DNA from: a virus
Strand: one strand, 5' to 3'
Virus record (IMG/VR): IMGVR_UViG_3300045988_078724
Span: 31,033 to 95,032 of that record
DNA: 64,000 bases
Below, piece by piece: positions 5,623 through 55,385 of the stretch (positions are counted from its first letter, which is position 1; each line of letters begins with the position of its first letter). The notes beneath the pieces are model-generated. The model saw nothing but the letters and a program-made list of their open reading frames with translations. It searched no databases and was not told the origin of the DNA. The translations under genes and the position numbers were made by a program.

Positions 5623-5978
5623 GTATGAGAAGGAGATTTTTTAATGCTGCGGATAATTTCGTGGGAGGATGTTATAATAAGTTATCCAATGAAGATATAA
5701 AAAGGCTTGGAGGAAAAAGACCTTATGTATGTCAGTTTAATAAAATTCATATACATATAGGACCTGTATTAAAAGATCATGATTCTGATGTTAGTTACAT
5801 AATGTTTAATAGTAATTGGAATTATGGTGGTTATGAATCTATGGTTTATAATCATAGCAATAATGGTATTTTTATATTAGGTGAAAACAAAATTGGTAAC
5901 ATAGAAGATCATATACAAGATCTAACATATTGGTACGAATATGATCCAAGCATTAATGAAAATTATTGTTATTTTTAG
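5616..5978 (+). CDS. hypothetical protein (120 aa)
   Basis: ORF overlapping the giant ORF stop by 7 nt; its TAG stop directly abuts the right-end hairpin of TnpB element 1. Confidence 0.4.
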   Translation: MLSMRRRFFNAADNFVGGCYNKLSNEDIKRLGGKRPYVCQFNKIHIHIGPVLKDHDSDVSYIMFNSNWNYGGYESMVYNHSNNGIFILGENKIGNIEDHIQDLTYWYEYDPSINENYCYF

Positions 5979-5984
5979 GTGATT

Positions 5985-6021
5985 ATGTATTACTTTACAC
6001 CAAAAGCGTAAAGTAATACAT
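5985..6021 (-). repeat. subterminal hairpin (RE / omegaRNA 3' stem candidate) of TnpB element 1
   Basis: atgtattactttac-accaaaagc-gtaaagtaatacat: 14-bp perfect stem, 9-nt loop, immediately downstream of tnpB stop. Confidence 0.55.
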
Positions 6022-6023
6022 AT

Positions 6024-7286
6024 TTATACGGAAATCCGTACCGGGTTCCACCAAAACCCTCTACCTTTTGGTAACATCGTTACATCAAAGGATTCTTTTT
6101 CCGATTTACGGATGATGTTAAAAGCACCATTGATATCAGCATTAATAATACTACCAGAAGAAGTTTTAAACAATCCTCGTTTAATCCTTCTTCCTTTGTA
6201 AGATTCATGTTTACAAATCCGTTCATTATCCAAAAAGCTACATTTTGAAGTATAAGATTCTTCAACGATCTTAACATTAATACCTTCTAATGTCGCTTTA
6301 TACGATACCATACTGATAAACATATTAAAAGGAATAGATACAAAGTTTTGATTATTTCGTTTTCCGATATTGATCTCTTGTTTCCAGCATTTGTTATGAC
6401 CGATTATGATCGTATTAATACCATTGGAAACTACGTGATTAATCAATATCCTACTTGCCTTATGAAGATAATCCTTGATCTTGTTATTTCTTTTGTTGGT
6501 TAATGACCTGATTTGTTTTGAAATTTGTTTGTTATCTTTTAACTTAGATTTTAAGTATGCTAATTTCTTATTATAATACTGGTTGATAGACTTCAGTGGT
6601 CTACCATTGATGATAAAACAAGAACCGGTGTTTGAAACACAAGAGGCTAAATTATCTAATCCTATGTCGATACCAAGGTAGTTTCCATTATCTGACATAA
6701 GATTCTTTTCCTTCTTATTGTAAACTATTTCAAGAACAATATACCCATTCTTAGGAATGAATCTAAGTTGTTGAATATTTTGTTTATTGGTTCTTGTCGT
6801 GAAAGAGAATTGCTTAGGTAACTTAACAACACCTTGTTTTATCCATTTTTGAGAAAAAGCTATGGTTGTAAAAACAGCAGGAAACAAACCATCTTTGTTA
6901 AGATACTTAGGTATTCTAACAAATTCGGAATACTCACCTCTATTCCTTTTATTTAGAAGATTGAAGAAAGATTTGAAGTTTCTATCAACCATCATCAACA
7001 CTTGTTGAGCAACAGGTGTTGGTAAAGCACGATAGTCAACATCATTTTCTGCTCTTAGTTTCTTTTCAAGAGAATAGTAGTTGAGATATTTGTACTTTAC
7101 AGTATTATCATCCTTGTATTGAAAATAGTGTTGTCTAACAACATACAATCCTTTATTGTATAAGTTTTTACACTTATGCAATAGGTCATAAAGTTCATTA
7201 TAATAAACAGAACTTGGCTTGATTGTATGTTGTTCGACTAATCTCATGACACAAATGTAGGAATTATTATCTATATATAAAAACAA
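6024..7286 (-). CDS. tnpB: TnpB-like RNA-guided nuclease (IS200/IS605 OrfB family), 420 aa
   Basis: C-terminal RuvC-III-like motif [21 protein letters not shown] motif, [10 protein letters not shown] RuvC-I-like motif; paralogous to ORF 17149..18339. Confidence 0.85.
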   Translation of the reverse strand: [420 protein letters not shown]

Positions 7287-7337
7287 TTTCTTATATTTGT
7301 GGTGTAAAGTTGTATATAATCACCAAAGTTAATTATT

Positions 7338-15664: not shown

Positions 15665-15722
15665 TAACAATTAATTTAAAACAAATCATGGAATTAAAAG
15701 ATTTTAAAATGTGGTTAGAGTA

Positions 15723-16550
15723 ATGACAAAAGAAGAGTTCGAATCAACAATCGAAGAAGATATTAAATTCGTTGAGGGATTCAAGAATTTCTTAAAACAT
15801 GATGATGCCACGAGGATAGTAGAGCATATCAAGTCTGTGTTAGAAGCATCAGTAGATTACTACTATCCTAATCATCCTGAAGTAGAATTTGAAAAAGATT
15901 TTAATATACAATACGATGTCAATAATATCTTGAACAAATACGGCCACACCGAAATGGGTATGTATAAAATACAGCTCTATATAGAGAATATTTTGGGTAG
16001 TATTCAAAACAAGAAGCCTGTAGACGTGGGAGAAGTCTCTGACGGATACCACACTTTCAATGAATTGTATCGGTATCGCATGTTGTATAACGCTGCCTTC
16101 TTTAATCTATTAGCCAGAAGCGGACAGGTTGAAGTTTGCAAATCAAGGAGACACAGCGACGGAGAAAAATGCTTCGGTTCTGATGATTGGTTTATTGTGA
16201 TGGCGATCCTACCTACCGGTCAGGTATCTAATCACTATGAAAGCAAATACTGGGATTTGTTTGATGTTCCTGAAAGAGAAACCGCTTTCGAATACGATGG
16301 CCATACACCAAATGAAGCCTCCGACAGACTTGAAAAGTATCTCAAACTGCCTCGTCATGGCATGACATTCGAACAGGCTTTAGAACGGCTTAAATTAGGT
16401 CGTAAGATAAAAAGAATCGATTGGGGTAAAAAGTATATCTGTATGTTTGACGTAAATATATTGATGATAGATACAGGTCAAAAAGTAGCATCAAATTGGA
16501 ATCCAACCGAACATGATATTATGTCTAATGACTGGGAGATTGCGGGATGA
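15723..16550 (+). CDS. two-domain protein: unknown N-terminal domain fused to C-terminal DUF2829 / Tad2-like (Thoeris anti-defense 2-like) domain
   Basis: C-terminal ~80 aa MTFEQALERLKLGRKIKRIDWGKKYICMFD...ASNWNPTEHDIMSNDWEIAG matches the DUF2829 pattern (M.F.EAL..LK.GKK..R..W ... AS...D.LA.DWEI) as I recall it; ATG at 15723 preferred over listed GTG 15711. Confidence 0.5.
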   Translation: MTKEEFESTIEEDIKFVEGFKNFLKHDDATRIVEHIKSVLEASVDYYYPNHPEVEFEKDFNIQYDVNNILNKYGHTEMGMYKIQLYIENILGSIQNKKPVDVGEVSDGYHTFNELYRYRMLYNAAFFNLLARSGQVEVCKSRRHSDGEKCFGSDDWFIVMAILPTGQVSNHYESKYWDLFDVPERETAFEYDGHTPNEASDRLEKYLKLPRHGMTFEQALERLKLGRKIKRIDWGKKYICMFDVNILMIDTGQKVASNWNPTEHDIMSNDWEIAG

Positions 16551-16822
16551 GTTTGTTTGTATGTTCAAAGTGTGGCTGTATAGATAATACAGCCACATCA
16601 TGTTACTGGGCTATTATAAGACCTTGTAAGAATCGTATTTACGATAAGTCGCTAAAGGGATATGAAGGCAAGCCTCTTTGTTCTGAATGCGCCGCTATTG
16701 AATATGATAAGGATGATAAACTGGTGGTAGTTCCTGGAACGTGGCATGGTAAGTTCAAGAAAGAATGGCCTACTGAAGAAGAAAAGAAGCATATTGGTAA
16801 AAACGGTATTTTAAATATGTAA
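16547..16822 (+). CDS. zinc-ribbon protein (91 aa)
   Basis: CSKCGC ... CSEC cysteine pairs; start overlaps previous stop. Confidence 0.45.
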   Translation: MSLFVCSKCGCIDNTATSCYWAIIRPCKNRIYDKSLKGYEGKPLCSECAAIEYDKDDKLVVVPGTWHGKFKKEWPTEEEKKHIGKNGILNM

Positions 16823-16825
16823 ATT

Positions 16826-17131
16826 ATGTGTGATAAGGAAATTGTTGTATGCGCAGCTATATGGGTTCAAGATCACAAGAACAAGCCTCACGGTCCAGTA
16901 AATATACCATCCGGAACCGTATTTTGTGGATTGAGGCATTGTTCCATAATATCGCAACTTGCGGCATACGGTATAGCCCATAAAAACCGCAGTGTTCAAG
17001 GATTTTTGACAAGCAAGAACCGGTTTTTAACAAGAGAGGAAGCGTCTGAACTTGTTAGAAACAATAATCAGGAAATGGTAGTAGATAGGAGTGCCATTAG
17101 AGAACAGTTGTATTCAGAAGATTTGTATTAG
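16826..17131 (+). CDS. hypothetical protein (101 aa)
   Basis: ORF, conserved-looking core IVVCAAIW..GLRH..QGFLTS..RFLTREEA. Confidence 0.45.
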   Translation: MCDKEIVVCAAIWVQDHKNKPHGPVNIPSGTVFCGLRHCSIISQLAAYGIAHKNRSVQGFLTSKNRFLTREEASELVRNNNQEMVVDRSAIREQLYSEDLY

Positions 17132-17148
17132 TGTATTAAAATGTTTAA

Positions 17149-18339
17149 ATGAAACTTGTTGAAAGACATATAGTTAAAGACAACTGGTTTGAGGATATAT
17201 GCCTCAAATCTGGTTTGTTGTACAATTATGTTCTTTACAACATTCGTCAAGGAGTCTTTTCTGGTAACTACTTAAAGGAGTTTGATTTATCAAACAAACT
17301 TTGCAAAGAAAACCAATTTGATTTCAGGAATTTACCTAATCATGTTTCACAGCAGGTGATTAAACAGGTATTTAAAAACATAAAATCCTGGATGAGATTA
17401 AAGAAAGATTTTGAAAAGAATCCTTCGAAATACGGTAATCATCGTCCTCATCTTCCTTCGTATAAGAAGGGCAAGAAACAAAACATGGTTGTTTTTACTA
17501 ACTGTGATTGTAGGATAAAGGATGATGGTTATATCCATTTTGTCAAAAACACAATTAAACCGATCAAAACAAATGTAAAGAAAGATGAATTAAAACAAGT
17601 TAGAATCATACCTCAAGCCACCTGTTATGTAGTAGAGGTAGTTTATGAAAGAAAGGAAATTGATCTTGGTTTAGATAAAGACAATTTTCTTTCGATTGAT
17701 TTAGGATTGAATAATTTATGTTCATGTATTAGCAATGTAGGATTAATTCCTTTCATTGTAAACGGACGGATTATGAAATCATTTAATCAATGGTACAATA
17801 AGAAGAAAGCTAAGTTGATGTCTTTTGTTGGTGATAGAGGATCTTCAAATAGGATAAGAAGAATCACTTTGTTTAGAAATTGTTGGATAGAAGACAAGTT
17901 GCATAAGATAAGCAGATATATTGTCAACTTCTGTAGATCAAACAACATAGGAACAATCATCATCGGATTAAATAAGGAATGGAAACAGGAAATCAATATT
18001 GGTAGGCGAAATAACCAACATTTTGTTTCTATTCCTCATTCAAAGTTAATAGATAAGATTGTTTACAAAGCAAAGTTATTAGGAATCAATGTTGTTATTC
18101 ATGAAGAATCCTATACATCAAAGATAGATCATCTTGCTTTTGAACCTCTAAAGAAACAGGAATCCTACTTAGGAAAAAGAAAGAAACGTGGATTGTTTCA
18201 AAGTTCAATTGGAAAACTGATCAATGCAGATATTAATGGATCAATTGGAATAGCAAGAAAAGTAATTGGTGATTCTTTTATTGGAAAGATAATCGATAGT
18301 GGATTTGTGTTTAATCCAATTAGAGTAAATACTTTGTGA
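17149..18339 (+). CDS. tnpB: TnpB-like RNA-guided nuclease (IS200/IS605 OrfB family), 396 aa, diverged paralog of 6024..7286
   Basis: [10 protein letters not shown] (RuvC-I), [49 protein letters not shown] (RuvC-III); ~50% identity by eye to TnpB-1. Confidence 0.85.
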   Translation: [396 protein letters not shown]

Positions 18340-18412
18340 TACAAGGTTGAATCTAATAAATAAAATGAGTAATTTTAATAACATTTGTATTAACTAAAAA
18401 AAATAAAACAAT

Positions 18413-18763
18413 ATGGGATTTATAATCAGAAAGTCAATATTTTATGATATGATGGACGGCAATCAGTTAGAGTATGAATTTGACAACATAAATTTAGATC
18501 ATATCACATTTAAAGGTAATGGTAAAGAACCTTTTTCATTTAACAGAGTCCTTGTTGAAAATTTAATTGAGACATTTGAGACTATGCAAGATATATACTC
18601 TGATAATTACGGAATTAAGGTTTATACCGGTAATTGCATAATTCAACTGAATGTAAATCCAAAGAACTTAAGTGAATCCTTTTTTGACGTATATGATAGA
18701 GATGGGATGAAATTGATATATAGCATACAAAATAGTATCTTGAAAGAAATGTTTGTCATATGA
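18413..18763 (+). CDS. hypothetical protein (116 aa)
   Basis: ORF. Confidence 0.45.
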   Translation: MGFIIRKSIFYDMMDGNQLEYEFDNINLDHITFKGNGKEPFSFNRVLVENLIETFETMQDIYSDNYGIKVYTGNCIIQLNVNPKNLSESFFDVYDRDGMKLIYSIQNSILKEMFVI

Positions 18764-19077
18764 TTACTAAACAAGATATACAAGCAGCAGCATCGTATAT
18801 TTTCCGAAGCAGTTTTGTCTCGGAGGACCAGGCAAGGAAAGCAATGGTAAAAGCCGGCAATAACGCTACCAAGATCCTCGTCAAGACCTTTAGAGGCAAG
18901 TTGTTCAAGAAAGCTTTTGAAAGAGCCCGTAGAGGAAAGGATATCAGTTCTTTTGAAAGACAGGAAAAAGAAAGTGGTTTCAATTTTCTACATAATCCTA
19001 ATAATGGTCGTATGCAAAGCGGTCATATTATAATAGATGGAATTGGTCTGTTTAAACAAATAATTCATGAAAGGTAA
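18760..19077 (+). CDS. hypothetical basic protein (105 aa)
   Basis: ORF overlapping previous stop. Confidence 0.45.
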   Translation: MITKQDIQAAASYIFRSSFVSEDQARKAMVKAGNNATKILVKTFRGKLFKKAFERARRGKDISSFERQEKESGFNFLHNPNNGRMQSGHIIIDGIGLFKQIIHER

Positions 19078-19735: not shown

Positions 19736-19754
19736 ATAACAAAAATGTTTTATC

Positions 19755-22700
19755 ATGGTATCAACGTGTATTATTAAAAGAGATAATAAAAAGAAAGTTG
19801 TTTCTGTCTCTACCAGATCAGGGGACAGGTCTATGTTGTTTGATAAGATAGCATCTATTCCTCTTATGGAGAACAGGGAACGGGCTACTACTGTTTTTAA
19901 AACCGTATTTTCTAATAAGTTCTTAAAGGATTTTGGCGACTGGAGAAAGAGAGTGCCTATCAACAAACCGGCTTATAATAAGGTTAAATCCAACATTGAT
20001 CTTATTCCGGAAGCTTATAGAGAAAGGGTACTGGATAAGGCTTCTAAGATGAGTAATCCTGTTCTTGTATCAAAATCAGATGCAACTTATGGGATTCAAG
20101 AATCAGGCTTCGGATTCTATAGCCAAGATCTGGGTGATAATATTATGTTGGTGGATGCTATGATCCCATCAAGTATTTCCGTACCGGAAGAACCAGGAAT
20201 AGACGCCGGGCAGTATTTACAAGATGCTATATCTTCGGACTTCACTCCCGTATCTGTGGTACAGGATAAGGGTGTTAATTATATGGTTATAAAAGACGGT
20301 CTTAAGATATTTAGCCCAGAAGAGCTACCAGAAACAGATTCTAATCCTGTGGGTGTAACGTATCAGACTGGAGAGCCTCGTTTGTTTTTCATGAACGATC
20401 GTAGTCAATTATTTGAAGATTACGGAGAAGCTCTTCGCTCTGGCGGGAATGATATTAGAATAGGATTCTTATCAGGAACCGTTCAAGAATCTACCGTGGA
20501 TGGCGTGGAAGACATTACTTACAAAGCTGGAAAGTATGTTCTTAATAATCCCAAGTCTTTTATACCGGTCATGACCGCTTCTGCTTCTACTTCTTTATCA
20601 ACAAAAGGCGGGATAATTAACTACCTTATAAAGAAAGGTCTTTTGTCAGGATCTAAGATATTCGATTCTGAAACAAGAAGCTATTATCTTACAGGAGAAG
20701 GTTATACAGGACAAATTAGACTTTTCAATTCAGCCTTATCATACACCGAGCTCCGTAATCATTTTGGTTCCGATGTTTCCATGAACGACCAAGGTATGAT
20801 AACCATAAGCTCGTTGGATAACAGTAAGGTAACTATGAGACTCGCCACCGGAGGAACGGAAAGGGTTAGCAAGGAACAGATAAAGAACGATCTTAAGTCA
20901 GGAAGATACAATGAATTGGACGCCAAGTACGATCATTTTGATGCGCTTGTAGTTTCATTCATATTAGAAGACAACGATCTTTATGCTGATACTAAAGCTA
21001 AGATCGTATCAGATTATAGCAGGCAGGAACGTGACCAACGAAATTCTATTGTCGAGATACTGAAAACTCTTGGCGTTAGCGTCATAGGTATGACCGACTA
21101 TATAGAGAAGTACCAAACCAAATACGGGCACGAACCTTCTGCTAAGGCATTGGCGGATATTGCTAATAACGTAATAGCAGTTGGTGAAGATGCTACTTTA
21201 TCTGATTTAGTAGAAGAAACAGCCCACTTCCTTGTAGAGGCATACAGAGATCAGAATGCTGTTGAGGCTGTTCTGCAAGATGTAGAAGGTACGGAAGAGT
21301 GGAACCAGTATGCAGGTCAGTATTATAATACATACGGTAAGGTATATGAAGGAGCTGAGCTTGATAATGCGGTTAGGAGAGAAATTCTTGGAAAGATCCT
21401 CGCCAGGGAGATGCAGACCGGCACAGCACAGGCGCCGGTAGAGCCCACCTCCTTCCTGGGGCGCGTCCGGCAGCTTCTCTCTGGAATCGTGAGCTGGCTT
21501 AAATCAGCTTTATCAACCCAAAGACAAGATTTGAATAACGTTATTAAAAACATTCGTGATCTTGCCATTACTGACATAGATAAAGGATTTGACACTTCTC
21601 TGTTAAAGGATAATGACTTTACATTATACTCCCTTTCTTCTATGAACAAGAACAAGTTTCTTGAGTCTAAGATCCTGGCATTAAGGAAAACATTAAGAGA
21701 CTTACGTCAGATAAGCTCTGATAGGGCTGTAACTACGTCTATGACCCTTGCGCAGCTTAAGACCATAGAAGATAAGATAAATAAAGTAGAGACCGAAATA
21801 GACAAGAATGAGATGGCGGCTGCCATGAACAGCATGATCTCTACAGCCGAAGCTCAGGTCAGATACTTAAGCAATGTGGTGAACACCATCCTTCATGGTG
21901 ATACCAAAGACGGTAAGCTTCACTTCAATACCAATGATCGAAAGAACGTAGATATTATCAACAATCAGGTTCTTCCGATCATGAACGATCTTCGAGGATA
22001 TATCCGTAACAGAAGTACCGAATTTGATGAACGTGAAAAGCAGGATTATACAAATAGGATCAATACCGTCATTGCCGACATCAATGGTATTCAGTCTGAT
22101 ATTAAATCAGTACAAGACCTTGATGAAAGTACGTTGCTTGATAAGTTAATGAACGAACTTCATGTGCCGGCAGATAAGGTAAAGAGAGTAAAAGAATTTT
22201 TCGACAAGGTTCAACACGATGTTTCTTGGATAAGTAGGTGGTTTGGTATATTAGAGCATTCTTCCAGTCCGTTCAATAACGCTCTTGGAGCTATGATTGC
22301 CAAAGACAATTACAATGCGATGGTGAATGCCCAGCCCGCCATATCCGACTTCCTGGCATATGCTAAAAAGCATGGTTTTAACAAATCTGAATTTGAAAAA
22401 CTGCTTCAGAAAGTAGACGGCAAAACTTCTAATTACCTTCGTAGTGCTCTTGATATGGCTAAATACGATCGTAATAAGAAGCTGGCGCAGATGCGAGCGT
22501 TTGCGACTGCCATGAACATAGAGATATCAGAAGAAGAAATTGGTGATGTGGTTGACAATAACCGTAATTACGTATTTAAAAGAGAAGTAGTTGACAAGGA
22601 TGGAAATACGGTTACTGAAAACGCTAAATTCAAACCATCGTCTGATAGGGTTAATACCGATATTTTTACCATCGAGCAGGAAAAGATCTATACGGAACAG

Positions 22701-38452: not shown

Positions 38453-39055
38453 TTAACTGTTGTACCCTTCTTTAATAATCGAATTTCTACCGGTAGATAC
38501 CGACTGGCGAAGATCGTCATGTACAGAATCTACCGTAGAATACTTGTTTCTGGTTGTAAAAATCACTTCCAGCATCTCCTTGTAATCACCTAAAGCTACT
38601 TCGTATCTCGGATCTACTTTGGCTTTTCTTTCAGCCTCAGCATTACTTTTAGCCAGCTCCCGGTCGAGGAGGTCTTCTTTGATTCGGTCAGCAATCATAT
38701 CAAGTTCTTTTTTAATAACTTCTCCTGCTGCCCGAAGTTGACCTTCTACGTCACCAAGCTGGTCTTGGACGGTTCCTATTTCTTTCTTTAGGCGATCGTA
38801 TTCGTTAATCATACCCATATCACCTGCATAGCCGGAAAAGTCCTTGATTATTCTGGTTCCTTCTTTAAGGAGTTCAATAACTCGTCTTTTACGTTCTCTG
38901 CTTATTAAAGACGGAAGACGATAATTCATATCCGCCACCGCCTTATCATGTATGGAGTTGATTAAAAACATCTCTCTTTCATCCCCTGCAAACTCAGTAA
39001 GAACCAAAAGGAACTTACTTATCAGGTATTCGTTTTCTTCTACTGTTAGTCTCAT
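38453..39055 (-). CDS. hypothetical coiled-coil protein (200 aa)
   Basis: ORF. Confidence 0.5.
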   Translation of the reverse strand: MRLTVEENEYLISKFLLVLTEFAGDEREMFLINSIHDKAVADMNYRLPSLISRERKRRVIELLKEGTRIIKDFSGYAGDMGMINEYDRLKKEIGTVQDQLGDVEGQLRAAGEVIKKELDMIADRIKEDLLDRELAKSNAEAERKAKVDPRYEVALGDYKEMLEVIFTTRNKYSTVDSVHDDLRQSVSTGRNSIIKEGYNS

Positions 39056-39070
39056 GGTTCTTATTTTTTT

Positions 39071-40204
39071 TTAATACAATGACTGTTCTTCTTTTGTCTC
39101 TTGTTCTTGTTCCTGATTGTCCGTAACGTCTTCCACAGTATAGAGCTTGGGCGGCGTCGGCGGCTGGTTGGGGTTCACGAACTTCGTCCCGCCCTCCCCG
39201 TACATCCATCCATGCCCCGGCAGAATCTCTGGGTGGATTGTATTAGTAAGCTCTTCCATACTAACTTGCCTTACCTTCAGTATATGATGAAACACCAGTC
39301 CGGCTGTCCTGAATGATGTTTTGTTTTCAGTTTTAAACCTATCAAGAGTCTGATACCAATCTTTCCCAAATATCATATACTTATCCAGCCCGTACCTACG
39401 AGGATTGTGCAAACCTATCATTAACGTACATAACTGACCCAGCGTATCAGATTGGTAAAAATCAGAAAGACGCGGAGGCTGCTCTTGTGGGCTTTTTATC
39501 CTTCCTTCTATCTCTCTGTTGAATTGTGATATGATGAGGAAAAATATGTTTTTATATACTAATTTAGCTTCGTTCATAACCGCCACCAAATCATCTATAG
39601 CCGACTTAGGATCTAACCCCATTCTTTTTATCAAAGCAATATGATCGACTTTAAATATTATAAGACGTTTGTCTTTGTGTTTGGTAGCTATATGATACAC
39701 AGCCGCCTCAAACTCTTTTACCGTACACGGAGCATCGATGTATATTATATTATTCCTGATTTCACCTTGAAGGATTTCAAACATCCTCATCTCTTCCACT
39801 GTATTAGAATCTTGCCTTCTTAATATTTCAGGAGCCCGCTTTTTCATATCCTGGCTCATTCTACGAAGAAGAAGATCTTGAGGATTCATTTCGAACTCGC
39901 AATTAACAAGAAAATAATCTTCTGCTTGCGGGTTGATCATCGGATTCATCACATTTTCCAATATCTTTTGGGCCACATACGATTTACCTACAGATGGCCG
40001 GGCTCCTATGGCAATAGCATGCTGAGGGAAAATACCTCCAAGCAAAGCCTCATCAATATAATCGTATCCGGTTTTAGCGGGGATAAGCTCTCCCCGCCTG
40101 TATTTCAAGATATTCTCATACGCCTCTTCCATGACCTGTTTAGAGGTCTTGAATATTCTTCTTATATCTATCCTATTTGCTATCTCCTCGTGCATTTTTG
40201 TCAC
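39071..40204 (-). CDS. DnaB-like replicative helicase (C-terminal RecA-like domain)
   Basis: AIGARPSVGKS Walker A, IIFKVDHIALI Walker B, ISQFNREIEGR (DnaB SQLNR arginine-finger motif). Confidence 0.7.
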   Translation of the reverse strand: MTKMHEEIANRIDIRRIFKTSKQVMEEAYENILKYRRGELIPAKTGYDYIDEALLGGIFPQHAIAIGARPSVGKSYVAQKILENVMNPMINPQAEDYFLVNCEFEMNPQDLLLRRMSQDMKKRAPEILRRQDSNTVEEMRMFEILQGEIRNNIIYIDAPCTVKEFEAAVYHIATKHKDKRLIIFKVDHIALIKRMGLDPKSAIDDLVAVMNEAKLVYKNIFFLIISQFNREIEGRIKSPQEQPPRLSDFYQSDTLGQLCTLMIGLHNPRRYGLDKYMIFGKDWYQTLDRFKTENKTSFRTAGLVFHHILKVRQVSMEELTNTIHPEILPGHGWMYGEGGTKFVNPNQPPTPPKLYTVEDVTDNQEQEQETKEEQSLY

Positions 40205-50783: not shown

Positions 50784-51521
50784 TCATTCTTCTGAATTTT
50801 CAGCAGTTCCTAAAAGATATTCATTGCCCTCAAAAGGAATGCAACAATCCCATAATGTTCCATTGGAACATTCATGCTTATAAGACAATCCATCAGAATC
50901 GTCCACAATTTCCCTTGCAAACAAGCTGATATGCCATTCTTTATCGTCCTCGTCTCTTACCAGCACTTTGTCAAACGGCTTAAAATCATATTTCGGCTCT
51001 TCTTTAATCCCGAAGAAGCGTTTCAGATATTCTTTTGCTTTAGGATTTTCGCTTTTCTTTAACGCTTTAATCATCTTCTGTTTTTCCGAATCTGTTGCAA
51101 GTCTATAACATTCTATGTGGTTTTCGTGTGCAGCCAAATCATCCAATATATTAAGACTTGTTCCCGCTGCAAGACTCGCATACAAAGATGTTAAATATTT
51201 CCCATGCATATTTAAAATAAAAATATAACTTCCATCTTTGTTGCTTAACACATCTCCATCTTTAAATGTAGTATATTCCGGGACTTCAAGAAGGAGGCGA
51301 TTTTCGCTGCTAAATGCTTTTCCTGTAGCAGAAAACCAATCTGCCGATACAGAAATAGAATGAATTACAACCAATAACGGACAAATTGACGAATTGTCTT
51401 CATATACTATTTCTGCTCTATTTCGTCCTTTCTCTGTCACAATACGACCTGCTATTTCCCCTATGTTTATTTTTTTCGCCGTTTCTAAATCAAACGGGAT
51501 TGTTACCATTTTATATTCCAT
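50784..51521 (-). CDS. hypothetical protein, paralog A of tandem pair
   Basis: Shares PKYDFKPF(D/E)(K/R)VLVR ... CIP(F/Y)EGNE(Y/H)LLGT and N-terminal motifs with 51871..52662. Confidence 0.55.
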   Translation of the reverse strand: MEYKMVTIPFDLETAKKINIGEIAGRIVTEKGRNRAEIVYEDNSSICPLLVVIHSISVSADWFSATGKAFSSENRLLLEVPEYTTFKDGDVLSNKDGSYIFILNMHGKYLTSLYASLAAGTSLNILDDLAAHENHIECYRLATDSEKQKMIKALKKSENPKAKEYLKRFFGIKEEPKYDFKPFDKVLVRDEDDKEWHISLFAREIVDDSDGLSYKHECSNGTLWDCCIPFEGNEYLLGTAENSEE

Positions 51522-51870
51522 AATCTTATTTGTTTTAGTAATTATATACTATTTTACGACATCTATGTTATAAAACATACAGATGTTATTTAATTTCATA
51601 TTCTTCTTTTCTAACTTTGTTTTACTCAATCGAATCACTCAGTCCCTTGTTTCGGACAAGACGGTTGAGTAAAAGAGGTCTTTGATATAAGGTTCCGTCT
51701 TGAAAACGTAAGATGGGTAAAATCAAAAACGTTTTATTCAGTAAAAGAATCCGGTGATCTCACTTTCGAGCAACCGGTAGAGGGTATTGGTGATACCCAG
51801 TATGATACTTCGTACAAATGTATATTGTTTTTCATCTTTGATATAAAATGGTGTATAATCACCTTAGTTC

Positions 51871-52662
51871 CTAAAAATGTTTGTTAGTTCCTAAAAGATG
51901 TTCGTTCCCTTCGTATGGGATACATTGACTAAATCCTACCCCTCCTAAGCATTCGTATTTATTATCTCCTCCTGATTCTCTGGAAAATAGATGCAATTTC
52001 CACCTCTCTTGGTTAGTTCTTCTTACCAGCACCCGTTCAAATGGTTTGAAGTCATATTTCGGCATCTCATCTAATAGATACTCATATTCACTTAAATATC
52101 GTTTTATTATATCTATTTTTCTACTGTCTTCGGCTTTTATAATCTTTTCTGCTAAAAATTTCTTCTCTTCTTCTATAGCCTTTCTTACATACCGATTTTT
52201 ATCTCCGTTATACACATTAGTCCATGTTTTGATATAATCAAACACAATATCTCCAGATGTTACCATTCCACATATACTTCCCATTACCCCTTTGGTAATA
52301 AGTCCATCATATATGAATTGATATCCATTAGCGCTTGTTAATACATCTCCTTTCTTGAAATACGCTCCAGCCTCTACCCTCAATTCCAGAGTGGTGCCGC
52401 CAATAATACAACCTTCCGTGTTGGCATATATAGCACTTATCCCATATCCATCTTTTTTTACAAAAAGCAAATTATAAGGACCTGCACAGTCTTTCGACTC
52501 ATATACAAATTCTATTTCAATATTATCAATTAATACCGAACCTTCTATTTCTCCGCTTTTAATTTTTCTCGCCGTATTTAAATCAAACGGAACAATAATT
52601 GCATTTTCCATATTTTTCTTGTTTTTAGTTGTTATAAAATAAGATGGGTTACTTAAACCCAT
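51871..52662 (-). CDS. hypothetical protein, paralog B of tandem pair
   Basis: see paralog A; 3' end carries a 21-bp tandem duplication. Confidence 0.55.
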   Translation of the reverse strand: MGLSNPSYFITTKNKKNMENAIIVPFDLNTARKIKSGEIEGSVLIDNIEIEFVYESKDCAGPYNLLFVKKDGYGISAIYANTEGCIIGGTTLELRVEAGAYFKKGDVLTSANGYQFIYDGLITKGVMGSICGMVTSGDIVFDYIKTWTNVYNGDKNRYVRKAIEEEKKFLAEKIIKAEDSRKIDIIKRYLSEYEYLLDEMPKYDFKPFERVLVRRTNQERWKLHLFSRESGGDNKYECLGGVGFSQCIPYEGNEHLLGTNKHF

Positions 52663-54149: not shown

Positions 54150-55385
54150 TAACCAACAAAACCACCATACTTTAGAAGGTAGATGAATTGGTTTGATTAA
54201 TTTTGAATCAAAATTACAGATAAAAAAAATGATTTCATACAAATACAACATATACCATTCCAGGAAAACGAAGTATCTTGTCAAGATGCTTCGTGAATGT
54301 TGTTTTGTATGGAATCATGCGTTAGCTCTACAACGTAGGTATCACAAACTGTTTGGGAAATATATCTCAGTTGGCAAAATGAAGAAGTATTTTGCCAAAA
54401 GAATTAAAAGAAATCTTCTTCATTCTCAAACAACACAAGAAATACTTGAACGTCTTGATGAATCTTATAATCGTTTCTTTAAGAAGTTAGCTAAACGACC
54501 TCCTAAGTTTAAATCACCGGAGAAATTCAACTCTTTTGTTTTCAAACAAGGTGGGTTTACCCTAAATGGTAATAGTCTAACAATTAACAAAGGAAAGAAA
54601 CGATTTAGATTTTCATACAGTAGAGTCTACGAAGGTAATGTTAAACAAATTAGAATAGTTAGAGAAACCTGTTCACGTTTTAGTTTGATTGTAGTTACAG
54701 ATCATAATCCTATAAGCTCTTATAGAAAGACACATGATGGTGCATCTATCGGATTGGATTTTGGACTAAAAACTTATTTAACTAAAAGCGATGGTAGCAA
54801 AATTGATTCTCCTCTATTCTTCAAACAATATCAAAATAAGATTAGAAAACTAAACAAACGGTTTTCTAATACAAAGAAAGGATCCAATAATAGAAGAAGA
54901 AAACTGTTTGAACTCCAACAAACGTATCGTAAAATAAACGATCTTCGATCGGATTTTCAATGGGGATTAGCACACCAGTTATGCAAACAGTATGATTATA
55001 TTTTTATTGAAGATCTAAACATTGAAGGAATGAAACGTTTGTGGGGAAAGAAAGTTTCCGATCTTAGTCATTCTTCTTTTATTGATAAACTAATGTATGT
55101 TTCTTCAAAGTATGGAGTAACGATACACAAGATTGACAAATGGTATCCTTCTTCCAAAACTTGCGAATGTGGCTGCATTAATAAAGGTCTGTCGTTACGC
55201 GACCGCACGTGGGTGTGCCCAGCGTGCGGCGCAATTAACGACCGTGATGCTCTTGCAGCCCGTAATATACTTCGGAAGGGCATTTCCGAATTGGAGAGCA
55301 AGAGTAATTCCAGCGATAGCAACATCGGGGTTTCTTGCGCTTGTATCCAAGAATCCCATTTGCTTTAGCGATGGGAGTATGTCAA
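54150..55385 (+). mobile_element. IS200/IS605-family TnpB-only element 3 (no tnpA)
   Basis: LE-side hairpin ggtttgattaattttgaatcaaaatt (contains TTGAT); right end defined by loss of similarity to the orphan copy after ...gagtatgtcaa (55385). Confidence 0.5.
54229..55368 (+). CDS. tnpB: TnpB-like RNA-guided nuclease with C-terminal zinc finger
   Basis: CECGCINKG...WVCPACGAINDRDALAARNILRKG (zinc finger + RuvC-III); ATG 54229 preferred over listed TTG 54193. Confidence 0.85.
   Translation: MISYKYNIYHSRKTKYLVKMLRECCFVWNHALALQRRYHKLFGKYISVGKMKKYFAKRIKRNLLHSQTTQEILERLDESYNRFFKKLAKRPPKFKSPEKFNSFVFKQGGFTLNGNSLTINKGKKRFRFSYSRVYEGNVKQIRIVRETCSRFSLIVVTDHNPISSYRKTHDGASIGLDFGLKTYLTKSDGSKIDSPLFFKQYQNKIRKLNKRFSNTKKGSNNRRRKLFELQQTYRKINDLRSDFQWGLAHQLCKQYDYIFIEDLNIEGMKRLWGKKVSDLSHSSFIDKLMYVSSKYGVTIHKIDKWYPSSKTCECGCINKGLSLRDRTWVCPACGAINDRDALAARNILRKGISELESKSNSSDSNIGVSCACIQESHLL

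What the first reader, a model, noticed from the sequence alone, without database searches (positions are those of the whole stretch)
17149..18339. TnpB-2: diverged paralog of TnpB-1 with no recognisable IS ends
This 396-aa TnpB is roughly half identical to TnpB-1 by eye ([18 protein letters not shown] versus [45 protein letters not shown] versus [27 protein letters not shown]). It is co-oriented and tightly packed with its neighbours (18 nt after the previous gene). I could not find terminal hairpins like those of elements 1 and 3. Two old, diverged TnpB paralogs plus a third unrelated one in a single phage suggest long-term retention. Retention could reflect homing-nuclease-like drive or a co-opted RNA-guided function, rather than recent transposition.
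Basis: partly seen in the sequence, partly recalled or inferred. Interest (0 to 1): 0.55.

Follow-up and report, generated by a model that had tools for sequence, protein, structure and literature searches.

The report
Guide-RNA nuclease gene spreading between phages
TnpB-2 is not an ancient resident gene but a 1.26-kb transposon remnant (an RNA-guided nuclease plus its guide RNA, with no transposase and a cut-down left end) that only a minority of closely related gut crAss-like phages carry, and it seems to spread between them by copying itself into the matching empty site.

Summary
In detail: a 396-aa TnpB ORF at 17149-18339, 44% identical to TnpB-1, 17 nt after the upstream gene. The window is an epsilon crAss-like phage about 96% identical to csAssE-Sib, which lacks TnpB-2. 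There the flanking genes are 17 nt apart, so TnpB-2 lies in a 1262-bp insertion (17123-18384). It belongs to an IS607-family lineage; relative L071 still has the serine-recombinase tnpA. The lineage has 248 relatives in viral contigs; the 80 examined occupy about 24 sites. Ends exist. The right end is sharply conserved (...AATTTTAATAACAT, ending at 18384) and overlaps a covariation-supported guide-RNA scaffold. The left end is truncated to 18-26 nt instead of about 60. The insertion follows AAGAT, with AT at both junctions. The predicted guide (18385 onward) matches the empty allele for 17 nt. In IMG/VR, 85 contigs are empty and 7 filled. Intact copies are 99.5-100% identical although their flanks differ by 4-10% and resemble empty alleles. 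Diverged and deleted copies also occur. The RuvC residues (D184, E320, D361) are invariant and dN/dS is 0.03-0.18. Most likely it is a transposase-independent, RNA-guided homing cassette; nuclease activity and drive are inferred, not shown.

The parts
17118..17122 (+). Left-flank motif AAGAT (candidate TAM). Its last two bases, AT (17121-17122), are the putative crossover dinucleotide shared with the right-end terminus.
   Evidence: The empty site in csAssE-Sib reads ...CAGAAGAT|TTGTATTAACT.... The same ..GAT| or ..TAT| precedes the left end at other sites, including the verified pair L009 versus window 10061|10062 and the autonomous copy L071 (AAGAT|GGTACG...).
17123..17131 (+). Left copy of the target's first 8 nt (TTGTATTA) plus a G. 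It rebuilds the last two codons and the stop (L Y TAG) of the upstream 101-aa ORF (16826-17131).
   Evidence: Read directly from the junctions against the empty site. Base 17125 is G in the window and A in L003-L006; empties are 57 G and 5 A.
17131..17148 (+). Remnant of the left end (GTGTATTAAAATGTTTAA). About 40 nt of the canonical ~60-nt left end, including its TTTG...TAnnTTTG promoter-like boxes, are missing.
   Evidence: Alignment A1 with 11 related left ends. Verified full left ends are 59-60 nt in L009 and L072. L071's left end is shown.
17149..18339 (+). tnpB ORF, 396 aa. RuvC-I D184 (17698-17700), alternative RuvC-II E320 (18106-18108), RuvC-III D361 (18229-18231). No zinc-finger cysteines.
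   Evidence: D184 124/124, E320 123/124, D361 124/124, G273 124/124. AF2 model pLDDT 91.7. Foldseek hits to Cas12f, ISFba1 TnpB, ISDra2 TnpB and Fanzor2.
18255..18384 (+). omegaRNA scaffold, 3' module. Helices: 18266-18270/18292-18296, 18274-18279/18284-18289, 18301-18305/18313-18317, 18319-18324/18352-18357, 18333-18337/18341-18345, 18361-18366/18372-18377. It overlaps the last 85 nt of the ORF. A further long-range helix (18129-18143 with 18233-18249) may extend it 5'.
   Evidence: RNAalifold on 24 sites, pair counts, covariance model R1, out-of-sample hits at tnpB 3' ends. In alignment A6, 27 of 33 pairs are compensatory.
18380..18384 (+). Right-end terminus AACAT. Family homology stops after 18384.
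   Evidence: All 80 loci end ...TTTTAATAAC(A/G)T and then diverge. Homology with the MT835500 copy ends at 18384.
18385..18404 (+). Predicted guide-encoding flank and right copy of the repeat (TTGTATTAACTAAAAAAAAT). It is identical to the empty allele for the first 17 nt. The A8-9 run is linked to the element, whereas empties mostly have A6.
   Evidence: no other exact match in the window. That this stretch is used as a guide is inferred from the known architecture of TnpB/IS607 elements (PMC10711439, PMC11061315).
17123..18384 (+). The whole 1262-bp insertion relative to csAssE-Sib. Its register is ambiguous by up to 10 nt because of the direct repeat.
   Evidence: GC drops to 0.31 at 17-19 kb.

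Best explanation
TnpB-2 is the cargo of a non-autonomous IS607-family element. It has lost its serine-recombinase gene (tnpA) and most of its left end, but keeps an intact tnpB, an intact right end and an omegaRNA. SHOWN: it is a 1262-bp insertion after AAGAT, in the last codons of a small phage gene, and closely related phages lack it. SHOWN: it belongs to a lineage that is very abundant in epsilon crAss-like phages. SHOWN: its 3' end encodes a conserved structured RNA that ends exactly at the element boundary. INFERRED MECHANISM: the mRNA 3' end is processed into an omegaRNA whose guide is the 16-20 nt right of the boundary (TTGTATTAACTAAAAA...). The TnpB-omegaRNA complex recognises AAGAT plus that sequence, a combination found only in phages without the insertion, and cuts about 16-22 nt downstream. 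During co-infection the broken genome is either repaired from the filled genome, which copies the cassette in ('non-restorative homing'), or is lost, which gives a competitive advantage. The filled allele is immune: the left junction matches the guide for only 8 nt, and the right junction is preceded by AACAT instead of the left-flank motif. No transposase is needed. That explains how a copy with a truncated left end occupies one single site in several diverged haplotypes. The odd left junction rebuilds the upstream gene's C-terminus and stop codon. It probably arose by illegitimate recombination between the target and the promoter box of the left end (both contain ATTTGT), and was kept because it is harmless.
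For: IDENTITY. Pfam TnpB domains. High-confidence AF2 model with TnpB/Cas12f/Fanzor2 fold matches. L071 carries a Resolvase+HTH tnpA overlapping a tnpB 77% identical to TnpB-2, and has the same AAGAT|LE junction. INSERTION AND POLYMORPHISM. Base-level empty site in csAssE-Sib. 85 empty versus 7 filled IMG/VR contigs. ENDS. Right end conserved in all 80 loci. Clean insertions without a target-site duplication in L009 and L072, with AT or T shared at both junctions, as PMC10711439 describes for the IS607 dinucleotide crossover. omegaRNA. On A2, 96.9% of cells are paired, and 48 cells have double changes against 25.9+/-4.7 in shuffles. Model R1 finds the same module at the 3' ends of TnpB-1 and of Helicobacter, Campylobacter and Bacteroides-phage tnpB genes that were not used to build it. 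On those sequences, 27 of 33 pairs have compensatory changes, with covariation 0.657 against 0.06-0.12 for slid partners. NUCLEASE COMPETENCE. D184, E320 and D361 are invariant in 124 diverse homologues, in the 'alternative E' arrangement (PMC10711439). dN/dS is 0.03-0.18, and 23 of 24 site representatives have intact ORFs. HORIZONTAL SPREAD WITHOUT A TRANSPOSASE. The element is 99.5-100% identical among five phages whose +/-600-nt flanks are 90-96% identical to each other but 98.3-99.6% identical to particular empty alleles. There is no tnpA in the window. This sublineage is found at this one site only. The A8-9 run 12 nt from the right end travels with the element. Decayed copies coexist with intact ones, as in the life cycle of homing-endonuclease genes. 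The guide matches the empty allele for 17 nt.
Against: No experiment or RNA data: omegaRNA processing, the TAM and cleavage are all inferred. The clade lacks the zinc-finger cysteines of characterised TnpBs. No member of this exact clade is known to me to have been tested. The motif ..GAT differs from the G-rich TAMs and GG crossover reported for IS607 (PMC11061315, PMC13565253). General homologous recombination between co-infecting, highly mosaic crAss-like phages could move the insert between haplotypes with no nuclease. A clear co-conversion tract was not demonstrated: only the A-run next to the right end is element-linked, and the junction-proximal left variants are common among empties. 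A ~93%-identical lineage shares the same junction, so part of the distribution is vertical. Many IMG/VR contigs come from one dataset (3300045988), so the counts are not independent. The origin of the 8-10-nt direct repeat is unresolved.
Confidence: 0.62

Rival explanations
1. Immobilised relic that hitch-hikes. The cassette is a dead-end IS607 fragment. Its presence in several haplotypes reflects only the frequent general recombination of crAss-like phages, and TnpB activity plays no part in its distribution.
For: The left end is truncated and there is no tnpA. Flank polymorphisms begin 16-28 nt from the element, and no long co-conversion tract is seen. Deleted derivatives exist (L171, L173). 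The allele is in the minority, 7 versus 85.
Against: The ORF is intact in all five full copies, and the only differences among them are a handful of substitutions. The catalytic residues and the omegaRNA are intact. There is family-wide purifying selection. An element 99.5-100% identical inside flanks that differ by 4-10% needs repeated recent transfer of just this ~1.3-kb block, which a neutral passenger would achieve only slowly.
Confidence: 0.22
2. Co-opted phage function without drive. The TnpB-omegaRNA serves the phage, for example as a weapon against competitors that carry the empty allele, or as an RNA-guided regulator that binds the 8-nt seed match at its own left junction. On this view it is not a selfish homing element.
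For: The guide targets a sequence present in most related phages. The left junction places AAGAT plus 8 matching nt 26 nt upstream of the tnpB start codon. Junctions in this family are built so that host genes stay intact: the start codon is rebuilt at 14 of 24 sites. TnpB-derived regulators (TldR) are known (PMC10705468).
Against: The catalytic triad is invariant, unlike in TldRs. The gene is absent from most relatives, so it is not an essential phage function. Killing a competitor and homing use the same cut and cannot be told apart from sequence. An 8-nt match is short for stable R-loop binding (inference from PMC11061315, where the characterised IS607 TnpB is reported to tolerate guide-target mismatches less well than Cas9 or Cas12a).
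Confidence: 0.1
3. Ordinary active IS copy. The element is still mobilised by an IS607 TnpA supplied in trans, from another phage or the host, and reached this site in each phage by independent transposition.
For: The autonomous relative L071 exists. The family occupies about 24 sites, with clean insertions that share a dinucleotide at both junctions.
Against: All filled alleles share the same aberrant, truncated left junction, which independent insertions would not reproduce. This sublineage occurs at no other site. No full-left-end version exists at this site. There is no tnpA in the window, and there are almost no close relatives in 185,579 bacterial species genomes.
Confidence: 0.05

Closest known systems
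IS607-family insertion sequences (serine-recombinase TnpA + TnpB + right-end guide RNA), e.g. ISXfa1 and ISFba1 (PMC10711439, PMC11061315, PMC6188088)
   Same: A family member (L071) has a Resolvase/HTH tnpA overlapping tnpB. Canonical copies have no terminal inverted repeats and no target-site duplication. The same dinucleotide is found at the left flank and at the right-end terminus. TnpB is about 390 aa. The guide-RNA scaffold overlaps the 3' end of tnpB and ends at the element boundary.
   Different: The crossover dinucleotide is AT, with an A/T-rich flank motif (..GAT or ..TAT), instead of GG with G-rich TAMs (AGGAG, GAGGG, GGG). The RuvC-II glutamate is in the alternative position, and the zinc-finger cysteines are missing. 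There is no Rfam RAGATH-18 match. The window copy lacks tnpA and about two thirds of the left end, and carries an 8-10-nt direct repeat.
TnpB-driven transposon homing (IS605-family GstIS/ISDra2 work: PMC10055086; 'non-restorative homing' discussed in PMC13565253)
   Same: The guide is specified by the flank next to the right end. The target is recreated only where the element is absent. A double-strand break plus homologous repair copies the element.
   Different: In the experimental systems the target is the donor site after TnpA excision, on a sister chromosome or a plasmid. Here there is no TnpA, and the proposed targets are empty alleles on co-infecting phage genomes. This has been proposed theoretically but, as far as the papers I read show, not documented in phage populations.
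Free-standing homing endonuclease genes of phages (T4 Seg/Mob; intron endonuclease competition, cited in PMC13565253)
   Same: A small nuclease gene wedged between conserved phage genes. Presence/absence polymorphism among relatives. Mosaic flanks. Intact and degenerate copies coexist.
   Different: Target recognition would be by a guide RNA, not by the protein. Self and non-self are told apart by the insertion itself, not by sequence differences in a nearby gene.
The two TnpB-family genes reported in phage crAssE-Sib (PMC11054128)
   Same: Same phage group (proposed genus Epsilonunovirus). The paper notes that TnpB genes occur in only some members.
   Different: crAssE-Sib lacks TnpB-2. The paper did not define ends, guide RNA, family (IS607) or mobility. 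TnpB-1 of the window is not at the position of the crAssE-Sib homologue.
TldR, nuclease-dead TnpB-derived repressors (PMC10705468)
   Same: A TnpB homologue without a transposase that keeps its guide RNA.
   Different: TldRs have lost RuvC catalytic residues and are fixed next to the genes they regulate. TnpB-2 keeps D184, E320 and D361 and is polymorphic.

Membership tests
TnpB (OMEGA RNA-guided nuclease) | OrfB_IS605 / RuvC-like domain plus the TNB domain, with a TnpB/Cas12f fold | tested here: met
   Pfam PF01385 2.9e-15 and PF07282 5.2e-07. AF2 pLDDT 91.7. Foldseek: AsCas12f 3e-17, ISFba1 TnpB 4e-13, ISDra2 TnpB TM 0.65.
TnpB (OMEGA RNA-guided nuclease) | RuvC catalytic triad D-E-D | tested here: met
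   D184 124/124, E320 123/124 and D361 124/124 in diverse homologues. The canonical-E position is always Gly (G273), so this is the 'alternative E' arrangement of PMC10711439. Spatial convergence of the three residues in the model was not measured.
TnpB (OMEGA RNA-guided nuclease) | CxxC...CxxC zinc finger between RuvC-II and RuvC-III | tested here: not met
   TnpB-2 has no Cys in this segment. Clade-wide, only the first Cys is frequent (83/124), and the second CxxC is replaced by KRGLF. This is a clade trait, not decay of this copy.
TnpB (OMEGA RNA-guided nuclease) | Structured omegaRNA/reRNA overlapping the 3' end of tnpB and ending at the right end, followed by the guide | tested here: met
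   Covariation on A2 and A6, plus out-of-sample detection by model R1. Transcription, processing and guide usage cannot be tested with these tools.
TnpB (OMEGA RNA-guided nuclease) | RNA-guided, TAM-dependent DNA cleavage | not testable with these tools
   Needs biochemistry. The candidate TAM ..GAT was only inferred from about 13 left flanks.
IS607 family | Serine-recombinase TnpA (HTH + Resolvase catalytic domain) upstream of tnpB | tested here: not met
   Absent from this copy and from the whole window (tblastn). Present in the family member L071 (Resolvase 6.8e-20), with a remnant in L002. So the window copy is a non-autonomous derivative of an IS607-family lineage.
IS607 family | No terminal inverted repeats and no target-site duplication; the same dinucleotide at the left flank and the right-end terminus | tested here: inconclusive
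   Met by the canonical relative L009 (AT at both junctions, clean insertion; L072 shares only T), and by the AT at both junctions here. However, the window copy also has an 8-nt repeat of target sequence at its left junction, and the dinucleotide is AT, not the usual GG (PMC13565253).
IS200/IS605 family | Y1 HUH TnpA with subterminal hairpins at both ends | tested here: not met
   The only tnpA found next to a family member is a serine recombinase. No left-end hairpin partner is present. I did not run an HMM search for Y1 transposases over all loci.
RAGATH-18-type IS607 reRNA (Rfam) | Match to the Rfam covariance model | tested here: not met
   No Rfam hit at E<=1 in 16800-18800.
TldR (nuclease-dead TnpB repressor) | Loss of RuvC catalytic residues or C-terminal truncation | tested here: not met
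   Catalytic residues retained and full length.
Homing endonuclease gene (functional class) | Presence/absence polymorphism at one conserved site, with the nuclease's target being the empty allele | tested here: met
   85 empty and 7 filled contigs. The guide equals the empty-allele sequence for 17 nt after AAGAT. That this sequence is the target is inferred from the architecture.
Homing endonuclease gene (functional class) | Co-conversion of flanking markers and super-Mendelian inheritance | tested here: inconclusive
   Element and flank phylogenies are incongruent, and the A8-9 run travels with the element. Other junction-proximal variants are not element-specific. Inheritance bias needs experiments.

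The most novel reading that the evidence does not exclude
A TnpB-omegaRNA cassette that has shed both its transposase and its left end works as a free-standing, RNA-guided homing endonuclease gene in crAss-like phages. It cuts the empty allele of co-infecting relatives. It then either copies itself in or eliminates the competitor, while its junctions are shaped to rebuild the stop or start codons of the neighbouring phage genes. This would be natural, population-level evidence for transposase-independent ('non-restorative') TnpB homing. It would also show a route from transposon accessory gene to autonomous selfish nuclease or inter-phage weapon.
Probability: 0.45. Interest if true: 0.7.

Novelty: new variant of a known kind. 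Interest (0 to 1): 0.5.

Why it matters
TnpB nucleases are the ancestors of Cas12, and their natural role is still being worked out. Experiments show that they restore a transposon after TnpA excision. Homing into empty alleles of co-infecting phages or plasmids has been proposed mainly in theory (PMC13565253).

Here a TnpB/omegaRNA unit that no transposase can move is found at a single site in several diverged genomes of one of the most abundant human-gut phage groups. Empty, intact and decayed alleles coexist. That makes the idea directly testable, because the guide, the candidate TAM and the target are all defined.

It also shows that the TnpB genes noted in epsilon crAss-like phages belong to a phage-resident IS607 lineage with unusual properties: an AT crossover, the alternative glutamate and no zinc finger. 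This may interest people looking for compact genome-editing nucleases with A/T-rich TAMs.

For annotation, it warns against reading multiple TnpB genes in a phage as anciently retained paralogs.

Tried and rejected
1. Rfam scan of 16800-18800 at E<=1: nothing. The omegaRNA is not a described family such as RAGATH-18.

2. The single-sequence RNA fold is not more stable than shuffles (z=-0.42), so thermodynamics alone is uninformative in this AT-rich region. Covariation was needed.

3. phmmer of TnpB-2 against the PDB gave only a weak dead-Cas12f hit. A profile and a fold search were needed.

4. General TSD hypothesis: I tested whether the flank after the right end recurs upstream of tnpB at all ~24 sites. 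It does not rise above the mismatched-pair control, and verified pairs L009 and L072 have no TSD. The window's repeat is therefore a peculiarity of this copy. L054 (9 nt) and L071 (8 nt) are chance or within coding sequence.

5. Search for a full-length-left-end precursor at this site: 38 exact hits, all unrelated chance matches.

6. Search for the copy's own 5' sequence elsewhere: only the same 7 contigs. The parent copy was not found.

7. Co-conversion: the L004-versus-csAssE-Sib differences cluster next to the insertion. But the left-side variants are common among empties, so I do not count them as element-linked.

8. Bacterial reservoir: the genome-contig scan found only 6 loci, none a convincing host copy. 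The method finds close relatives only.

9. IS200/IS605 (HUH) classification was considered first, because of the 'insertion 3' of a motif' pattern. I dropped it when the serine recombinase turned up in L071.

10. Canonical RuvC-II glutamate: the position aligned to AsCas12f E324 is an invariant Gly. I first suspected an inactive nuclease. I rejected that after finding the invariant E320 in the alternative position described in PMC10711439.
Full report
**1. Observation.** The ORF 17149-18339 (+) encodes 396 aa. It matches Pfam OrfB_IS605 (2.9e-15) and Cas12f1-like TNB (5.2e-07). TnpB-1 is 6024-7286 (-). TnpB-3 (54193-55368) is unrelated at the BLASTP level. The upstream ORF ends at 17131, 17 nt before the ATG.

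**2. Context.** The window is about 96% identical to phage csAssE-Sib (OR575929.1). This is an epsilon crAss-like phage in which two TnpB-family genes, 18% identical to each other, were noted as present 'only in some members' (PMC11054128). csAssE-Sib has no TnpB-2. The homologues of window ORFs 16826-17131 and 18413-18763 lie 17 nt apart there.

Base-level comparison gives the empty site ...CAGAAGAT|TTGTATTAACTAAAAAATAAAAC... In the window there is a 1262-bp insertion flanked by the 10-nt direct repeat ATTTGTATTA (17121-17130 and 18383-18392). The upstream gene's stop codon changes from TAA to TAG. GC falls to 0.31 across 17-19 kb.

**3. The family and its ends.** A scan of IMG/VR found 248 relatives. 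The 80 fetched loci (71-100% aa identity) occupy about 24 distinct insertion sites, and some contigs carry two copies.

- Right end: every copy ends ...AATTTTAATAAC(A/G)T and diverges immediately afterwards. This puts the window's right end at 18384.
- Left end: most copies have a left end of about 60 nt (AGT/GGT/GAT..AAT..TTTG...TAnnTTTG..ATG) preceded by ..GAT or ..TAT.
- Filled/empty pairs found among the fetched loci, and in the window itself, verify this at base level. L009 is inserted at window 10061|10062 (TTTAGAT|TTAAG) with a 59-nt left end and no target-site duplication. L072 versus L038 (AATAT|GCAAAC) has a 60-nt left end.
- Other copies (L031, L070) have truncated left ends, like the window's, which keeps only 18-26 nt before the ATG.

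**4. Family assignment.** L071 carries a 194-aa ORF that overlaps the tnpB start and has Resolvase (6.8e-20) and HTH domains. It is an IS607-type serine recombinase. Its left end is AAGAT|GGTACGAAAATTTG.... L002 (MT835500) keeps a tnpA 3' remnant. The lineage is therefore IS607-family, and nearly all phage copies are tnpA-less derivatives.

PMC10711439 states that IS607 elements integrate by crossover between matching dinucleotides at the ends, usually GG, and lack inverted repeats and target-site duplications. Here the shared dinucleotide is AT (AAG[AT]|LE ... AAC[AT]|flank) in the ACAT subfamily to which the window copy belongs. In the ACGT subfamily the flank always starts with G.

A consequence is that the junction codon (ATG or GTG) opens a phage ORF of at least 60 aa at 14 of 24 sites. 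These elements sit in start codons and rebuild them. The window copy instead sits two codons before a stop, and its left junction (TTGTATTA+G) rebuilds L-Y-stop.

**5. Protein.** D184, E320 and D361 are invariant across nine family members and across 124 diverse representatives (36-51% identity). The position aligned to the canonical RuvC-II glutamate of AsCas12f is always Gly. The zinc-finger cysteines are largely absent across the whole clade. This is the 'alternative E' arrangement described for Fanzors and some TnpBs (PMC10711439), so it is not a sign of decay.

The AF2 model is confident (pLDDT 91.7, pTM 0.87). It matches AsCas12f, ISFba1 TnpB (8iaz), ISDra2 TnpB (8h1j) and mimivirus Fanzor2 (9b0l). 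dN/dS between the window copy and 22 other site representatives is 0.03-0.18.

**6. omegaRNA.** RNAalifold on the last 260 nt of 24 site representatives predicts helices with compensatory changes, even inside the coding region.

| Alignment | Cells paired | Double (compensatory) changes | Covariation score (slid partners) |
|---|---|---|---|
| A2, 24 family sequences | 96.9% | 48 cells vs 25.9+/-4.7 in shuffles (0/500) | 0.229 (0.04-0.07) |
| A6, 8 divergent sequences | 95.9% vs 64.2% shuffled | 27 of 33 pairs (0/500) | 0.657 (0.06-0.12) |

Two caveats apply. The A2 structure was derived from the same alignment, and A6 is fitted to the model.

A covariance model of the 130-nt 3' module (R1) scores 131 bits on 18255-18384. 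Out of sample, it finds the same architecture in these places:

- the 3' end of TnpB-1 (5977-6102, -, E=6e-5);
- an orphan site at 51740-51864;
- a Helicobacter-phage IS607 (53 bits);
- Helicobacter and Campylobacter genomes (46 and 41 bits);
- a Bacteroides phage (30 bits).

Rfam has no match.

**7. Guide and target (inferred).** By the known architecture, the guide is the flank after 18384: TTGTATTAACTAAAAAAAAT. The empty allele reads AAGAT+TTGTATTAACTAAAAAAT, identical for 17 nt.

In the filled allele the left junction matches for only 8 nt. The right junction is preceded by AACAT, which differs from every observed left-flank motif of this subfamily at position -3. This would provide self-immunity. 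No other exact target exists in the window.

**8. Population pattern.**

- IMG/VR holds 85 contigs with the intact empty site and 7 with the filled left junction.
- Five intact copies (the window and L003-L006) differ at 0-7 of 1262 positions, while their flanks are 90-96% identical to each other.
- Each filled allele's +/-600-nt flanks are closest to an empty allele (98.3-99.6%). For example, L004 is 99.6% identical to the empty csAssE-Sib.
- This sublineage and its aberrant left junction occur at no other site. No version with a full left end exists at this site. The window has no tnpA.
- The copy therefore moved between haplotypes by recombination at the same site, not by transposition.
- The A8-9 run 12 nt from the right end is element-linked: present in at least 4 of 5 filled alleles but 3-6% of empties. 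Other proximal variants are not, so evidence for co-conversion is limited.
- Three further carriers of the same junction are not intact. L171 is a deletion derivative (17518-18504) of the sweeping variant. L173 has two deletions and is 93% identical. L168 is about 94% identical.
- So the insertion has some age, and intact, diverged and decayed copies coexist with a majority of empty sites. This is the pattern expected of a homing-endonuclease-gene cycle.

**9. Interpretation.** I am about 90% confident of the identity: an IS607-family, tnpA-less, left-end-truncated TnpB/omegaRNA cassette that is a polymorphic insertion.

I am about 55-60% confident that its spread is driven by RNA-guided cleavage of the empty allele during co-infection (non-restorative homing and/or competitor killing). 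The main rival is passive transfer by the general recombination of mosaic crAss-like phages.

TnpB-1 also fails the synteny test: window 5638-7328 is replaced by a 192-aa gene in csAssE-Sib, whose own TnpB-1-like gene lies about 27 kb away.

**10. Unresolved.** The origin of the 8-10-nt repeat is not explained. The left end's promoter box and the target both contain ATTTGT. My inference is that illegitimate recombination between a full-length insertion and an empty allele replaced the outer left end with target sequence, and that the product was favoured because it restores the upstream gene's C-terminus.

The close-relative scan of 185,579 bacterial species genomes found no convincing host copy. 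The lineage therefore appears to be resident in phages, within the limits of that method.

Noticed in passing
window 51740-51864 (+): An orphan omegaRNA-like element with no adjacent tnpB, in the intergenic region between the minus-strand ORFs 50784-51521 and 51871-52662. R1 scores it 36 bits (E=2e-4). It is 69% identical over 123 nt to the TnpB-1 3' RNA, with compensatory stem changes and the same terminus, AATCACCT. It could be a right-end remnant, or a second guide RNA usable by TnpB-1 in trans.
   Followed up: partly
window 5977-6102 (-) and 5638-7328: TnpB-1 has a homologous omegaRNA module ending at 5977 (R1, 39 bits). The whole 5638-7328 block is not syntenic with csAssE-Sib, which has a 192-aa gene there and carries its TnpB-1-like gene about 27 kb away. 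So TnpB-1 is also a variable insertion. The + strand at about 7314-7323 carries TATAATCACC, an inverted copy of the right-end terminus.
   Followed up: partly
window 10061|10062; ~39053-39108 (-); 19743-19757: The window holds the empty versions of sites that are occupied by TnpB-2-family elements in other phages (L009, L063, L070). In L070 the right end's GT plus the flank's G replaces the ATG of the 2140-aa gene (19755) with GTG.
   Followed up: yes
loci L007-L082 (24 insertion sites): At 14 of 24 sites the last two bases of the right end plus the first flank base form an ATG or GTG that opens a phage ORF of at least 60 aa. The family habitually inserts inside start codons (target A[T|G]) and rebuilds them, an intron-like way of being harmless in a compact phage genome.
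   Followed up: partly
L003 (35-nt deletion, equivalent to window 18387-18421), L171 (17518-18504), L173 (18359-18491 and 17234-17838): Three of the eight carriers (seven IMG/VR contigs plus the window) have independent deletions that all remove the right-end/guide junction region and the start of the downstream 116-aa gene. This overlaps the predicted TnpB cut zone, about 16-22 nt past 18384. The deletions could be scars of (self-)cleavage, ordinary decay or assembly artefacts.
   Followed up: partly
window 15711-16550 (+): The 279-aa ORF two genes upstream of the insertion has a WDGH domain (5.7e-36) fused to a Thoeris anti-defence Tad2-like domain (6.9e-11). It is a candidate anti-defence gene.
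   Followed up: no
L010 2750-3000 and its right flank: In L010 the element is flanked on both sides by diverged copies (~85%) of the same hairpin-containing phage sequence (CAGGGCTCGCAGTGATGCGGGC...). This suggests it arrived together with donor flank DNA, or that the target region was duplicated.
   Followed up: no
L175 (NZ_JBHMEP010000019.1, 'Vibrio olivae', 20-kb contig): An 80%-identical TnpB with a perfect R1 match sits on a 20-kb contig of a Vibrio assembly. Given that the lineage is otherwise found in gut phages, this contig is probably phage contamination or mis-binning.
   Followed up: no
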